Source: Eledone cirrhosa (lineage: Eukaryota). From it: DNA of 64,000 bases. The stretch spans positions 35,774,001 to 35,838,000 of the forward strand of contig OZ024753.1 in the NCBI GenBank assembly GCA_964016885.1, read 5' to 3'. Positions 19,430 to 59,819 of this stretch are shown here, piece after piece (within the stretch, counting starts at the first letter, position 1; each line of letters begins with the position of its first letter). The position numbers and the translations under genes are program-made. Under the pieces are notes generated by a model. The model did no database searches. It was given only the letters and a program-made list of their open reading frames with translations, and had not been told where the DNA came from.

Positions 19430-19674
19430 AAATGTATAGGAAAAACAAATGACTAGACATGGAGTATAGGTTAGATGAGAAGAATTTAATTAAAGTCCAT
19501 TTTTTAACACGTTTCAGTTCAGTATCATATATATATATATATATATATGTAGGAGGTGAGTTTTATTGTAGTACAATAAAGCAATGCAGATATCGGATAA
19601 GAAGCACTCTACAGTTTGTAGGACTGGAGTATACATAATATATAAGAACAAAAGATGGTTAAAAGAGTTCCATG

Positions 19675-19745
19675 TATTTTATTATGCGCATTTCAAAAAC
19701 AAATATCATCATGCAATAATATTTGTGTTTTCATCAGATAAAATA
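19675..19745 (-). ncRNA. Type I hammerhead ribozyme (family H1), intact core
   Basis: UAUUUUAU-CUGAUGA-long stem II-GAAA-UGCGCA (palindromic stem III)-UA-AUAAAAUA; 8-bp stem I. Confidence 0.75.
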
Positions 19746-19843
19746 GGAAGACATGATATGAAGGTTAAAAAACACTTGTGGATAGTGCAGTTTTAAAACT
19801 GCACTATCCACAAGTGTTTTTTAACCTTCATATCATGTCTTCC

Positions 19844-19914
19844 TATTTTATCTGCTGAAAACACAAATATTATTGCATGATGATATTTGTTTTTGAAATG
19901 CGCATAATAAAATA
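19844..19914 (+). ncRNA. Type I hammerhead ribozyme (family H1), core mutant CUGCUGA
   Basis: Mirror copy of 19675-19745 with A6-to-C change at 19855. Confidence 0.6.
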
Positions 19915-19969
19915 CATGGAACTCTTTTAACCATCTTTTGTTCTTATATATACATATATATATGTAGAT

Positions 19970-21385: not shown

Positions 21386-21416
21386 GTTTGTATATACATT
21401 CATATATATATATATA
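20745..21416. repeat. (TA)n array with CATGTTTG punctuation
   Basis: Direct reading of the sequence. Confidence 0.95.
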
Positions 21417-21418
21417 CC

Positions 21419-22090
21419 AGACAACAACACGACGGTAACATAGACAACATAGAAATTAGAATAATATCTAAACATAGAAATGACCCAGCAGATAGGCAAA
21501 TCAGAGAGGCCAGTGAAATAGAACTTAGAAGGCCAAGGCTAAACAGAAAAAATGAATGGAATAACAACAACACCCAAACAAACAACACTGACCTAAGAGA
21601 AGTATAAATAAATACATACACAAGCACAATAACAACAAACACATATAAACACACACTAGTAAAATAGAATACATTAACCAATACACAGTCAACCAATCAC
21701 GAACACACATCAAACAAAACACGATACACACATGCAAACGCATGTGCAAAGAAGACAAAAAATAAACAAATAAATAAATATATAAACAGACTAAATAAAG
21801 TTGGTGTAGAAAATACAATGCAACGGGAGGAAACAATAGCACCACTGACGATGTTGCAGATGTGCAACGAAAGAACTTTGATAAACTATATATATGTGTT
21901 TGTGTCTATATTGTATCTGTATTTTTGACCGTTGGTCAGTCAATGGCAACATTGAGGACCGAATAAATTAAATTAACCGATATAAAAGACACAGAAGCGA
22001 AAAGCGAAAACCAACCAAACAGTGAGTGTGTTCTGTTATTAATTCTGGCAATATTACACAAATATGACCCTCCCCAAGTATAACAATATA
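21419..22090 (+). mobile_element. Penelope-like element remnant: GIY-YIG C-terminus (21419-21607), UTR with hammerhead, start of ORF (ATG 22064)
   Basis: [44 protein letters not shown] fits the PLE GIY-YIG C-terminal R.I.EA..I....P.LN pattern; downstream part is homologous to 26190-26452 and 57790-58044. Confidence 0.72.
21843..21880 (+). ncRNA. Minimal type I hammerhead ribozyme (family H2)
   Basis: CA-CUGACGA-U-GUUGCA gaug UGCAAC-GAAA-GAAC-UU-UG; stem I is weak. Confidence 0.65.
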
Positions 22091-23923: not shown

Positions 23924-24454
23924 GGTTTTAAGGAAACGGAGTGATAGCTGCTGGCAGTATTGTCCATATGACAAATAGCAGTTACTATGGTGTAAGTAAC
24001 AAAAAAAAAAAAAAAATGTGTTGACTGATTTTCATATAAAGAAATACACAGAATTATAAAGCTAAAGCAAACATGTTTGGAACAGATGAAAATATATCGA
24101 TATGGACCAGTTGTGTTAGTTGACATAATGTAAGAAGTGTCTCACCTCAGTGCCACAGACACAGCATAGTAACTGGTTTAGGTCAGCTAGCACTAGACAT
24201 AATGGATAAATAGTTTTATGAACAGAGATATAACAAAAGACAGCATTGATAATTTCATTATAATATATAGAGAAGGTACAGGAGCAAGAGGGTTAGATTT
24301 TTAAAACTAAGTTAAAACACCCCTCTCACACCACCTCTCTACATATAACATTTCTTTATATATTGGTTTCTGATTTAGCAGAAGGCCAACAATTTAGGGG
24401 GAGGGGAAAGTTGATTAAATGTTACACACCATAATACACTATATATATATATAT

Positions 24455-25546
24455 CTATCTATCTAAGGCGGGTAAAATTCCCGAGATCCATGGACGAGTT
24501 CTCTCCAGCGGTCTCTGTCCCTCATTATCGCTGCCATGTCCTGCATCTCCAACAGACCAGTGTCTGTCCTTAGGGCATCAACATACGTTAATCTTGGTCT
24601 TCCTCTTCTAGTGTGTCCATGTAGGGGCTCCCAAAGGAGCACTGAGTGCAATGTCAACTCTGGATGTCGGTGAGCATGTCCAGCCAACCTCAGTCTCCTC
24701 TGTGTCACTTTTGAGCTGACTTTTGGGATGCTCCCATACAGCTCTGAGTTTTTCATCCTCAGTGTATACTGATTAATGTTCAGAGCCATCCTCAGCATTC
24801 TCGTGTAGCACCCATCCACCATCTGAGTGAGTTTCTTGGTCAGTGTCCAAGTCTCAGACCCATACAGCAGCACAGACTCCACTACAGCAATGAAGAGGCG
24901 GATTTTCAGGTCTCTACGAAGGTCCGACTTCCACACCGATCTCAAGCTGTGGCACGCCGCCCAGGCCTTGCTCTTCCTCTCAACTACATCATCCTCCGTA
25001 TTCCCAATCCTTGCTCCCAAATACAGGAAGTCCTCAACCAATTCCAGCGGCTTCCCGCCTACATTAGTGATCCCCTCTGGCTTCTCAACATTCTCTACCA
25101 GATATTTTGTTTTAGTCTCATTCATTCTCAGCCCCACACTCATCGACACAGTCTCAACCTCCCGCATCAAATCCTCTGCCTCCTTCACTGTATTTGTCAC
25201 CAAAACTATGTCGTCGGCAAATTCAGCATCCGATACCTTTTTCGCCCTAACTCTCCTGCTCTGAGCCGGTGCTACAGTAAAGCCAGAGTCCTGGTGTTTC
25301 TCCAGAGCAAGGCGCATACAATAGTCCACTATGATGATAAAAAGATAGGGAGCCAATGTATCTCCCTGGAGCACTCCAGCCAGTATCTCAAAGAACTCTG
25401 TCATCCCATCAGGTGTAATGACTTGGGCTTTGGTGTTGGTGTAGAGCAGTGATATCGGGTCCACTATCTTCTTGGGGATTCCATAAGCCTGTAAGATCTT
25501 CATCAGGCAGTAACGGTCCACAGAATCAAAGGCCGTCCTAAAGTCA
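24455..25546 (-). mobile_element. 5'-truncated RTE-clade LINE family 2, open RT ORF to the stop at 24463
   Basis: DFRTAFDSV, GVLQGDTLAPYLFII, FADD, FLYLG, VLLYGSETW, RLRLAGH, GRP motifs; uninterrupted frame; short (TAGA)/(TA) tail. Confidence 0.93.
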
Positions 25547-25557
25547 TATATATGTAT

Positions 25558-25746
25558 ATGTTAGGTAATTCCAAAGAAAAAGCAAATGAAAAAGAGTGCT
25601 CTATATATAGAACAGAGCTATTTAATTAGAAAGTGAACAACACAATATATAACATCTCTGTCTGATGAACGATCCAGATGTATATTAATATTGTCTAGAG
25701 TCCAGAAACCTTTGGTAATGAAGTAGTTATATATTGTGTTGTTCAC

Positions 25747-25754
<8 letters not shown>
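25558..25754 (+). ncRNA. Hammerhead ribozyme (family H3, core 25662-25717) clamped by a 29-bp perfect inverted repeat
   Basis: CUGAUGA...GAAA-CC uuu GG-UA; arms 25625-25653 and 25726-25754 are exact reverse complements; stem II is imperfect. Confidence 0.65.
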
Positions 25755-25798
<44 letters not shown>

Positions 25799-26048
25799 CG
25801 GCAATGAATTTGTTTTGCAAGGTTTTTGATATGAAATCGTGTGTCGAAAATATTGTTATACTTGGCGAGGGTCATATTGTTGTGATAATATTGCCAGAAA
25901 TAATAACAGAACACACTCACTGTTTGGTTGGTTTTCACTTCTGTATATTTTATATCTCCATAGTTAATTTATTTGGCAATCAATGTTTCTCATTGACTGA
26001 TCAACGGTTAAAAATACAGATATAAATATATATATATATATAGTCTAA

Positions 26049-26086
26049 CAAAGTTCTTTCGTTGCACATCTGCAACATCATCAGTG
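26049..26086 (-). ncRNA. Minimal type I hammerhead ribozyme (family H2)
   Basis: CA-CUGAUGA-U-GUUGCA gaug UGCAAC-GAAA-GAAC-UU-UG on the - strand. Confidence 0.65.
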
Positions 26087-26217
26087 GTACTCTTATCATG
26101 TTTCCTATTGTGTTGTATTGTAATGTTCACGCCATTTTTATTTTTATTTTATTGAAATAAAAATAAAAATGGCGTGAACATTACAATACAACACAATAGG
26201 AAACATGATAATAGTAC

Positions 26218-26255
26218 CACTGATGATGTTGCAGATGTGCAACGAAAGAACTTCG
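26218..26255 (+). ncRNA. Minimal type I hammerhead ribozyme (family H2), first stem I pair disrupted
   Basis: CA-CUGAUGA-U-GUUGCA gaug UGCAAC-GAAA-GAAC-UU-CG. Confidence 0.58.
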
Positions 26256-26534
26256 TTAGACTATATATATATATATTTATATCTGTATTTTTAACCATTG
26301 GTCAGTCAATGATAAACATTGATTGCCAAATAAATTAACTATGGAGATATAAAAGATACAGAAGTGAAAACCAACCAAACAGTGAGTGTGTTCTGTTATT
26401 ATTTCTGGCAATATTATCACAACAATATGACCCTCGCCAAGTATAACAATATATATATACATATATATATAATAATTAATATATAATTAAACATATATAC
26501 ATATATACTGATTAATGTATATATGTATATATGT

Positions 26535-26840
26535 TTAATCAGTATATACTGAGGATGAAAAACTCAGAGCTGTATGGGAGCATCCCAAAAGTCAGCTCAA
26601 AAGTGACACAGAGGAGACTGAGGTTAGCTGGACATGCTCACCGACATCCAGAGTTGACATTGCACTCAGTGCTCCTGTGGGAGCCCCTACATGGACACAC
26701 TAGAAGAGGAAGACCAAGGTTAACGTATGTTGATGCTCTAAGGACAGACACTGGTCTGTTGGAGACGCAGGACATGGCAGCGATAATGAGGGACAGAGAC
26801 CGCTGGAGAGAACTCGTCCATGGAATTTTACCCGCCTTAG
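26535..26840 (+). mobile_element. RTE family 2 3' fragment
   Basis: About 6 substitutions and one 8-nt deletion relative to the reverse complement of 24463-24776. Confidence 0.92.
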
Positions 26841-26871
26841 AGATACATATATGTTTAATTATTTAACTATA

Positions 26872-26937
26872 TCATCTGATGAATGGGCTGGACGTTTGTG
26901 TAAGGATCGTCTAGTTTCTTGAAACCTTTGGTAATGG
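26872..26937 (+). ncRNA. Type I hammerhead ribozyme (family H3); conserved 3' flank to ~27036
   Basis: UCAU-CUGAUGA..GGGCUGGACG/CGUCUAGUUU stem II..GAAA-CC uuu GG-UA-AUGG; 3' flank is homologous to the inverted arm at 25558-25653. Confidence 0.68.
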
Positions 26938-27044
26938 AATAATTATATTGTGTTGTTTATTATGTAATTAAATAGTTCGGTACTATACATAGAACACTTT
27001 TCTTTCATTTACCTTTTCTACAGAAATACTTAACATTATATATT

Positions 27045-27176
27045 ACGTCCCTTGCCATTCTGAGTTCAAATCCCGCCGAGGTTAACTTTGCCTTTCATCC
27101 TTACGGGGTCAATAAAATAAAGTACCAGTAATACACTGGGATAATTGCTGGCCTTGTGCCAAAAGTAGAAACAATT
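27045..27176 (+). mobile_element. SINE family A, 5'-truncated
   Basis: B box GAGTTCAAATCC plus body. Confidence 0.85.
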
Positions 27177-27188
27177 ATATATATATAT

Positions 27189-28487
27189 AATAAGCCACTA
27201 TACTTAGCCTTTGTTGACCTAGAGAAGGCCTTTGATAGGGTACCCCGATCTGTCATCTGGTGGTCCCTAAGGAAGCTGGGTGTTGAGGAATGGCTTGTAA
27301 GGACAGTGCAAACTTTGTACAGAGGTACTCTCAGTAAAGTCAGGGTAGGAATGGAGTTTAGTGAGGAATTCCAGATACAAGTAGGAGTACATCAGGGTTC
27401 GGTCCTCAGCCCGCTCTTGTTCATTATAGTCCTCCAAGCCATAACAGAGGAGTTTAAGACTGGCTGTCCATGGGAACTTCTCTATGCTGACGATCTGGCT
27501 CTTATGGCAGAATCAGTAGAGGAGCTAGAGAATAAATTCCGGCTATGGAAACAGCAGTTGGAAGCAAGAGGACTGAGAGTAAATCTAGCTAAGACAAAAG
27601 TGTTGATGAGTAGAAAAGAGGACAAAACCCTGATTCCGTCAGGGAAATGGCCATGTTCGATATGCAGAAAAGGAACTGGCATAAATTCTATAAAATGCAC
27701 ACAATGTAGGTCCTGGGTACACAAGAGATGTAGCGGGATAGCAGGCAAACTAACAGGTAGGGAGAAATATGTATGCAGTAGATGTACAGGGAAATTAGAC
27801 AGTAGAAGTCGCACTGATAGACACATTTTTCAAATGCGAGAGGGCGCTATAGAAGTGGTGGATAGCTTCCGGTACCTAGGAGATCAGATTAGCATGGGAG
27901 GAGGGTGTTCCGAGGCCATAGTATCTAGAATAAGGACGGGTTGGAAGAAGTTTAGGGAGCTGCTTCCTCTGTTGACGAAGAAGGGTTTCTCCCTGCGTAC
28001 GAAAGGCCGGTTGTATGATGCCTGTGTGAGGAGCGCGATGCTGCATGGTAGTGAGACATGGGCAGCTACCGCAGAAGATATGCGACGGCTGGAGAGAAAT
28101 GAGGCAAGCATGCTCCGTTGGATGTGCAGTGTAAATGTGCGTGAACGACCCAGCATAAATGTGTTGAGAGAGAAACTGTGTCTGAGAGGGATAGAATGTA
28201 GTGTACGGGAGAGGAGACTGAGGTGGTATGGACATGTGATGCGCATGGAGGATGACCGATGGGTGAAGAAGTGCCAGGAAATGCCAGTTGAAGGAAGACG
28301 TGGTAGAGGTAGACCACGAAAAACATGGGCGGAGGTGGTGAGAACAGACCTCAGATCATTGAAGCTCACGGTGGAGATGACGAGGGACCGTGACGAGTGG
28401 AGAGATGCTGTGCTGAATAAGACCCGTCCCACCCTTGCAAGCAGGGAAAAGCGGACGTAAAATGATGATGATGATGATGATGATGAT
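27189..28487 (+). mobile_element. 5'-truncated RTE LINE family 1a, open RT ORF to the stop at 28460, with internal PHD-like finger
   Basis: AFVDLEKAFD, GVHQGSVLSPLLF, LYADD, FRYLG, HGSETW, RRLRWYGHV, GRPRKTW motifs; (ATG)n tail. Confidence 0.95.

Positions 28488-57749: not shown

Positions 57750-59819
<2,070 letters not shown>

What the first reader, a model, noticed from the sequence alone, without database searches (positions are those of the whole stretch)
25798..26452. 600-bp head-to-head pLTR palindrome with two outward-facing ribozymes and two ORF starts
The arms are ~300 bp around a 3-nt loop at 26151-26153. Each has an H2 hammerhead about 70 bp from the centre and ends in MTLAKYNNI running into (TA)n. 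No RT or endonuclease sequence is included. The geometry (centre 55-70 bp upstream of divergent ribozymes) matches the unrelated H1 palindrome, which suggests a shared mechanism. Here too the + strand ribozyme carries a damaging change (first stem I pair, 26254).
Basis: partly seen in the sequence, partly recalled or inferred. Interest (0 to 1): 0.75.

Follow-up and report, generated by a model that had tools for sequence, protein, structure and literature searches.

The report
Back-to-back Penelope retrotransposon ends
The palindrome is real but ordinary: two short end pieces of a common Penelope-type jumping gene sit back to back in a TA repeat, likely because both sides of one DNA break copied the same RNA from two different start points.

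Summary
The palindrome is real: arms about 97% identical, centre at 26150-26154, a hammerhead core 68 nt either side. Each arm is the 5'-truncated 3' end of a high-copy Penelope-like element (PLE; RT, CX4CxxC linker, C-terminal GIY-YIG, Neptune/Nematis type). Longer copies confirm the ORF start. An adjacent inverted copy is common in this family (55 of 167 sampled loci) and is a published PLE layout. Copies end at three fixed sites. In 25 of 25 unconditioned pairs with both ends at such sites, the two arms use different ones; a separate palindrome-selected set held one same-site pair. The window pair is tailed/untailed, as is H1. Partner arms share subfamily and rare variants. Best model: both strands of a (TA)n break prime reverse transcription on one template, and the two cDNAs are joined. 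A shared mechanism with H1 is supported. A ribozyme-set geometry is not: the centre is 102 nt from the predicted cut site, in an A-rich truncation hotspot. The junction is unique, so the palindrome does not move as a unit. Both ribozymes carry a stem I lesion. The scan has already noted this pattern on other DNA of this genome.

The parts
25795..26153 (-). Left arm: 5'-truncated PLE 3' end (A-rich tract, hammerhead, TA box, ORF start) ending at the outer site C, i.e. with the tail
25795..25850 (-). Tail: about 55 nt of extra ORF sequence present on the left arm only
   Evidence: same sequence continues into the ORF in L271-L273
25795..25875 (-). ORF start [26 protein letters not shown] (first codons of the PLE polyprotein; in-frame 3-nt deletion relative to other copies)
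26040..26093 (-). Type I hammerhead motif, core C at 26084, predicted cut between 26051 and 26050; distal stem I pair broken at 26092
26150..26154 (.). Junction (TATTG) inside the A-rich tract; unique in the genome
   Evidence: spanned by one contig
26154..26452 (+). Right arm: same PLE 3' end, ending at the inner site A (AACAATAT), no tail
26211..26264 (+). Type I hammerhead motif, core C at 26220, extra U after A9, 6-bp stem II, 2-bp stem III, predicted cut between 26253 and 26254; first stem I pair broken at 26254
26427..26452 (+). ORF start MTLAKYNNI running into TA repeats
25753..25796 (.). (TA)n target, left side
   Evidence: sequence
26453..26530 (.). TA-rich target, right side; no target-site duplication can be told apart
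   Evidence: sequence
19545..19951 (.). H1 palindrome (unrelated family, comparison only): zero-loop centre 19794/19795 on TTTAAA, left arm tailed, right arm untailed

Best explanation
This is one insertion of a Penelope-like retrotransposon in which two 5'-truncated copies of the element's 3' end lie head to head in a TA repeat, likely made when both strands of one cut each primed reverse transcription on the same template, from two different fixed start sites, and the two cDNAs were then joined. Shown: family identity, discrete 3' ends, different ends on the two arms, shared variants between arms, imprecise and unique junctions. Inferred: nicking of both strands at (TA)n, use of one RNA molecule rather than two RNAs from one source locus, termination of both cDNAs in the A-rich tract, and microhomology end-joining. 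The hammerheads are passengers of the pLTR. The insertion is likely inert: it has no RT or EN, each ribozyme has a stem I lesion, and read-through RNA is predicted to fold into one 300-bp hairpin.
For: Family: 807 exact copies of a 40-nt core and 1575 of a 41-nt downstream stretch. L006 carries RT (YVDD) and EN (YIGET) frames directly upstream of a pLTR 95% identical to the arm. Full-length sister copies run from M(T/P)LPKYNNICFDTRFHIKNLAK through RT to the EN. L272 shows the textbook layout: inverted tailed piece, partial tandem, full ORF, untailed 3' end. 3' ends fall at ATG+26, +71 and about +81. 69 of 196 unique loci have an adjacent inverted copy (55 of 167 in the two sets not chosen for a tail). 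Of the 69, 32 have both ends at canonical sites; 0 of the 25 unconditioned ones share a site (label permutation 1 of 200000), and 7 of 7 pairs chosen for a C end have an A partner. Some partner arms do not overlap at all (L086). In 9 of 32 pairs the tailed arm reaches further 5', in 19 the untailed arm, in 4 about equal. So both ends needed their own priming. Partners agree at subfamily-diagnostic columns (28 of 37 in the best quarter of the null, 2 of 37 in the worse half), and the window arms share three variants seen in at most 2% of copies. H1 family: 14 of 15 pairs long/short. Literature: inverted 5'-truncated copy and a tail at one end (PMC8557442). A purified PLE protein cleaves and extends both strands, is predicted to be a dimer, starts at two internal sites that define the tail, and does not need the ribozyme in vitro (PMC11167929).
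Against: Near-symmetric junctions exceed independent truncation (12 of 69 against a permutation mean of 6.6, p 0.016; but 3 of 26, p 0.35, in one subset), and short fold-back pieces occur at some junctions (L060, L067, L046). So snap-back copying of the first cDNA may contribute. One A/A palindrome (L340, duplicated as L341) and one pair ending at the same non-canonical site (L139) appear among 24 distinct ribozyme-to-ribozyme junctions. 37 of 69 pairs were left out of the end count because one end was non-canonical or cut short. End classes were defined after seeing the data. By overall identity the partner was the best match in only 4 of 17 pairs. Two of the three samples come from contig C1 only. 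PMC11167929 saw no difference in start site between top and bottom strands, and did not test pairing within one event.
Confidence: 0.72

Rival explanations
1. Snap-back: one cDNA stops in the A-rich tract, folds back and copies itself, then switches onto a short cDNA primed from the other side of the break. Both ends are still primed separately, but most of the second arm is a DNA copy of the first.
For: Excess of near-symmetric junctions; 25-55 nt inverted duplications at the 5' end of L060, L067, L046, L296; 3-nt loop in the window; three shared rare variants.
Against: Most pairs are asymmetric (57 of 69) and some do not overlap. Zero-loop centres on self-complementary words (H1 TTTAAA and CATATG, L093) fit annealing of two 3' ends better than a hairpin. 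The T-rich cDNA end offers little self-pairing.
Confidence: 0.17
2. Self-priming on an antisense transcript makes the palindrome first, and the palindrome then inserts (proposal in PMC3846280).
For: Head-to-head palindromes at PLE inverted junctions were read this way in PMC3846280 (passage). The antisense strand is T-rich at the centre, and a TA box follows the ribozyme.
Against: It does not explain why the outer ends sit at two different fixed sites in 25 of 25 pairs, nor non-overlapping arms, nor junctions spread over more than 1 kb of the element.
Confidence: 0.05
3. One reading: the ribozyme sets the centre 55-70 nt upstream, or the palindrome moves as a unit.
For: At least 34 exact-core head-to-head pairs with 100-160 nt spacing (18, 16). 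Paired copies end in -100..-30 more often than unpaired ones (27 of 55 against 28 of 112, Fisher p 0.003). H1 centres are 60-83 nt from the core.
Against: The cut site is 102 nt from the centre. The junction is unique, and junction sequences differ between loci except within identical duplicated flanks. Symmetric centres also occur at +182, -217 and -530. 5' ends peak at each AT-rich tract. Requiring two ribozymes selects centres just upstream of them. The H1 sample was biased by its query.
Confidence: 0.04
4. Assembly or read fold-back artefact, or a later DNA rearrangement of a single copy.
For: Palindromes in AT-rich repeats are a known source of artefacts (own knowledge; PMC8557442 notes assembly problems).
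Against: The arms differ at 7 places, with derived changes on both arms (4 left, 2 right, plus a TA indel). They end at two different canonical sites. A contig of run X1 spans the junction.
Confidence: 0.02

Closest known systems
C-terminal EN+ Penelope-like elements of the Neptune/Nematis type (PMC8557442; passages read)
   Same: Single ORF with RT, CX2-5CxxC linker and GIY-YIG EN; pLTR with hammerhead and ORF start; partial tandems; inverted 5'-truncated copy at the 5' end; tail at one end; microsatellite targets.
   Different: Here both copies are so short that only pLTR remains, so the inverted layout looks like a free-standing palindrome. The tail is 45-55 nt with two outer sites, against 30-40 bp described. 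Neptune versus Nematis was not resolved.
Poseidon_Ac in vitro mechanism (PMC11167929; parts 1-2 of 4 read)
   Same: Internal RT initiation at fixed sites inside the ORF start; AT-rich targets; both strands cut and extended; ribozyme dispensable.
   Different: Different clade. That paper does not show that one insertion uses both sites; the genomic pairs here indicate it does.
Adineta vaga Penelope insertions (PMC3846280; passages read)
   Same: Head-to-head inverted pLTRs, palindromes at the inverted junction, optional tail, TATATATA box, asparagine-rich ORF inserts.
   Different: Those palindromes are 18-38 bp and were explained by antisense self-priming. Here the arms are 300 bp and the end pairing favours priming from both sides of the break.
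Minimal type I hammerheads of metazoan PLEs (PMC4209133; passages read)
   Same: [quoted passage not shown]
   Different: Loop 3 (AA) is not palindromic, N17 is U in 198 of 208 instances, and stem I has an internal loop. Activity is untested.
L1 twin priming (recalled; only a search listing seen)
   Same: Both target strands prime on one RNA and give an inversion with an imprecise junction.
   Different: In L1 the second primer anneals at variable internal sites and the arms barely overlap. Here both starts are fixed and the arms can overlap almost fully.

Membership tests
EN+ Penelope-like element | Single ORF with PLE-type RT and C-terminal GIY-YIG EN in the parent element | tested here: met
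   RT motifs (DKSG, DVVSLY, QNEGAAIG, YVDD) and VVY..C..C..YIGET..HW..EH in L006, L058, L199, L209, L271. Pfam RVT_1 E 7.6e-5, 22.9 bits, below its cut-off of 29.6; no Pfam hit on the EN piece. Motif names partly recalled.
EN+ Penelope-like element | pLTR formed by partial tandem and including the ORF start | tested here: met
   L271 (95.7% over 464 nt) and L272 (99.2% over 1043 nt), sister subfamily about 78% identical to the window arm
EN+ Penelope-like element | Inverted 5'-truncated copy next to the 5' end, with a tail at one end | tested here: met
   55 of 167 unconditioned loci; window arms end at C and A
Neptune/Nematis clades | CX2-5CxxC linker plus CCHH motif in the EN | tested here: met
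   HCTNKKCVIC / HCTNRKCIIC and two Cys inside GIY-YIG followed by two His; definition
Neptune/Nematis clades | RT phylogeny placing the family in one clade | not tested
   No reference sequences were fetched
Type I (minimal) hammerhead ribozyme | CUGANGA, GAAA, UH core with stems I-III | tested here: met
   208 instances: stem III pairs in 201 and 198, proximal stem I pairs in 198 and 194, distal stem I pairs in 171-190. Stem II was part of the search pattern. Copies are close relatives, so covariation is thin. Another family at 57794 pairs GTCA/TGAC in the same register.
Type I (minimal) hammerhead ribozyme | Match to an Rfam hammerhead model | tested here: not met
   No hammerhead family at E<=10 on either arm. 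MFE folds do not give the hammerhead shape.
Type I (minimal) hammerhead ribozyme | Self-cleavage | not testable with these tools
   No raw RNA reads of this stretch were available
Non-LTR retrozyme | At least two tandem direct repeats each with a hammerhead | tested here: not met
   The two units are inverted, not tandem; definition from bioRxiv 10.64898/2026.07.22.740005 part 1 of 5
MITE or other palindromic mobile unit | Many copies with the same junction and ends | tested here: not met
   43-nt junction pattern with 2 mismatches matches only this locus

The most novel reading that the evidence does not exclude
Twin priming on a single RNA is the default integration route of Penelope-like elements: one enzyme dimer starts one cDNA at the inner site and one at an outer site from the two sides of a (TA)n break. 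The long-known inverted pLTR with a one-sided tail is then the direct footprint of that reaction, and palindromes like this one are its shortest product.
Probability: 0.5. Interest if true: 0.55.

Novelty: new member of a known kind. Interest (0 to 1): 0.3.

Why it matters
The locus itself is an inert retrotransposon stub of a described layout. Its value is statistical. How PLEs form tandem and inverted insertions is named as an open task in PMC8557442. The end-pairing rule (different start sites on the two arms, shared template variants), seen here in two unrelated families, gives a sharp prediction that an existing in vitro system can test. I found no paper stating the pairing rule (searches; subscription journals are not covered and no supplements were read). 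Earlier agents of this scan reached a similar reading on other loci of this genome.

Tried and rejected
Rfam on the whole window listed only hairpin-like miRNA models in its best 150 of 408 rows; on each arm it gave no hammerhead. My first descriptor missed these ribozymes because of the extra U; a relaxed one found them. The window-wide inverted-repeat scan was swamped by satellites. Searching for a full-length copy by the tail pattern gave only truncated copies; walking upstream from the RT found them. Ribozyme cut site as a truncation point: 2 of 87 copies begin at +34 (L213, ambiguous, and L233) and about 7 begin in the TA box just behind it; a small contribution is not excluded. Overall arm identity as a same-template test was uninformative; diagnostic columns replaced it, where some of the 37 rows are duplicates or widely spaced pairs. 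No RNA holder listed. The RAD-seq run X21 and run X4 did not cover the junction bin. Rows dropped: L048, L120 and L151 as repeats of an insertion already in the set, then 14 of 210 rows as duplicates. Pairs with a gap over 45 nt were counted as unpaired (L032, L079, L101; L101 may be a tail/tail pair). Copies longer than the references are censored, so pair counts are lower bounds. PMC13282606 has no mention of palindromes or ribozymes. The findings look-up by sequence returned nothing.

Full report
Observation. The palindrome is there. The arms align over about 300 nt with 6 substitutions and one 2-nt TA indel. The centre is TATTG at 26150-26154. A hammerhead core lies 68 nt either side (26084 minus, 26220 plus); the 28-nt core has 3 matches in the window and none in 100 shuffles. 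The arms are unequal: the right arm stops at 26452 after MTLAKYNNI, while the left runs about 55 nt further. A 65-nt contig of run X1 spans the junction without differences; X1 may be the source sample.

The ribozymes. The motif reads as a type I hammerhead: stem I of 2 bp, an internal loop and 5 bp; CUGAUGA plus one extra U; 6-bp stem II; GAAA; 2-bp stem III; N17 = U. These pairs hold in most of 208 instances, but the copies are close relatives and stem II was in the search pattern. Rfam does not recognise the motif and free folding does not give it. The extra nucleotide and weak stem III match the minimal PLE hammerheads of PMC4209133 (passages), which cleave poorly in vitro. The plus copy has lost the first stem I pair (26254) and the minus copy a distal pair (26092). 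RNA read across the locus is predicted to fold into one long hairpin (-481 kcal/mol for 666 nt).

The family. A 40-nt core occurs exactly 807 times in G000 and a downstream 41-mer 1575 times. Upstream of such copies lie EN and RT frames; L006 has both in front of a pLTR 95% identical to the arm. Walking upstream gave full-length sister copies whose ORF begins M(T/P)LPKYNNICFDTRFHIKNLAK, passes an asparagine-rich stretch and the RT, then a CX4CxxC linker and a GIY-YIG domain with the CCHH pattern. Pfam gives a sub-threshold RVT_1 hit and nothing on the EN piece. By the motif definitions in PMC8557442 (passages) this is a C-terminal EN+ PLE of Neptune/Nematis type; I built no tree. L272 shows the published layout: inverted tailed piece, partial tandem, full ORF, untailed 3' end.

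How common is the layout? I sampled three sets: 100 core matches on contig C1 (96 loci), 87 of the first 100 downstream-motif matches on C1, and 30 of 79 long-tail matches. After removing duplicates 196 loci remained; 69 have an inverted copy directly at the 5' junction, 55 of 167 in the two sets not chosen for a tail. Among the first 100 core matches, 8 lie in 4 head-to-head pairs (two pairs are identical duplicates), where chance is about 2e-5 per copy by my arithmetic. Pattern searches found 18 and 16 exact-core head-to-head pairs at 100-130 and 131-160 nt spacing (lower bounds). The window's junction occurs once. So the enrichment is real, but each palindrome is a separate event.

The end rule. 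Copies end at three sites after the ATG, +26 (A), +71 (B) and about +81 (C), each followed by TA repeats. Of the 69 pairs, 32 have both ends at such sites. None of the 25 unconditioned pairs uses the same site twice (24 have exactly one A; permutation 1 of 200000), and all 7 pairs chosen for a C end have an A partner. The window is C/A. Among 24 distinct ribozyme-to-ribozyme junctions, 13 have both ends canonical: 12 differ and one is A/A; one further pair ends at the same non-canonical site (this set overlaps the others). In the unrelated H1 family 14 of 15 pairs are long/short and one is unresolved, including the window's H1 palindrome. Some partner arms do not overlap (L086), and the tailed arm reaches further 5' in 9 of 32 pairs, so copying of one cDNA alone cannot account for both ends.

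Same template? By raw identity the partner is the best match in only 4 of 17 pairs. At 19 subfamily-diagnostic columns, partners agree far better than random copies: 28 of 37 rows are in the best quarter, 2 in the worse half (some rows are duplicates). The window arms share a 3-nt deletion and two substitutions seen in at most 2% of copies; the later changes split 4 left and 2 right. This fits one RNA, or two RNAs from one source locus, or later conversion between arms; I cannot separate these.

What sets the centre? Not the predicted cut site, which is 102 nt away. In the set anchored downstream of the ribozyme, 5' ends peak at the TA box (+25 to +50: 10 of 87), in the 100 nt upstream of the core that hold the A-rich tract (29 of 87) and at a second A-rich tract (-300 to -200: 11 of 87), with 4 of 87 between those two tracts. 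Paired copies end in -100..-30 more often than unpaired ones (27 of 55 against 28 of 112). Near-symmetric junctions are about twice the permutation mean (12 of 69 against 6.6), and they also occur at +182, -217 and -530. Junctions are imprecise, with short overlaps or a few added bases. H1 centres sit on self-complementary words. The similar distances in H1 and H2 therefore follow from where such words and tracts lie, and from requiring that both arms contain a ribozyme.

Mechanism. Most likely the element's protein cuts both strands of a (TA)n target; one 3' end primes at the inner site and the other at an outer site of the same template; both cDNAs stop in the A-rich tract and are joined. 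PMC11167929 (parts 1-2 of 4) shows each ingredient for another PLE: both strands cut and extended, a predicted dimer, two internal start sites that define the tail, and no need for the ribozyme. The pairing within one event and the joining step are inferred. Snap-back copying is the main rival for symmetric cases, and short fold-back pieces at L060, L067 and L046 show that something like it happens. Antisense self-priming (PMC3846280, passage) does not explain the end rule.

Verdict. A new member of a known kind: an inert, doubly truncated PLE insertion. The layout is in print; I did not find the pairing rule in the searched library, and earlier notes of this scan describe the same pattern elsewhere in this genome. 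I had written my reading down before that look-up; the notes agree with it and are not independent evidence. Interest 0.3.

Noticed in passing
window 25550-25753: A third family directly left of the palindrome shows the same layout: a short inverted arm with a longer end (25550-25653, minus) joined to a plus arm with a CTGATGA...GAAA motif ending in (TA)n. A related plus-strand copy lies at about 26870-27043.
   Followed up: partly
window 24449-25550 (-) and 26535-26852 (+): Two 5'-truncated copies of one LINE-type RT element (RTE-like by my recall), 94.8% identical over 328 nt, face outward on either side of the PLE stubs: another head-to-head pair, or two insertions into the same TA-rich site.
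   Followed up: no
window 21403-22089 (+): Longer 5'-truncated copy of a sister subfamily (EN remnant, hammerhead at 21845, ORF start, end at site A), about 79% identical to the arms.
   Followed up: partly
window 57794 (+), 62163 (+), 43129 (-): Further hammerhead-like cores of other families; the one at 57794 shares GAAAGAACTT-TG and pairs GTCA/TGAC in stem I.
   Followed up: no
L189-L207, L271-L273: The family ORF has a long asparagine/histidine-rich stretch between the N-terminal region and the RT, reminiscent of the N-rich inserts in Adineta vaga Penelope ORFs.
   Followed up: no
L271:1455-1700: A 246-nt palindrome heads a full-length copy, centred on an A-rich tract about 217 nt upstream of the ribozyme core.
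   Followed up: partly
L049, L066, L089 and others, about 860-930 nt upstream of the core: An inverted repeat of about 75 nt inside the coding region recurs in alignments to one reference copy; it may be a hairpin or a feature of that reference.
   Followed up: no
L119/L120; L340/L341: Identical palindromic junctions at two places on one contig. L119 and L120 are identical over all 4182 nt, which points to segmental duplication or assembly duplication, not mobility.
   Followed up: partly
window 27132-28460 (+): A 442-codon stop-free RT frame of another LINE family.
   Followed up: no
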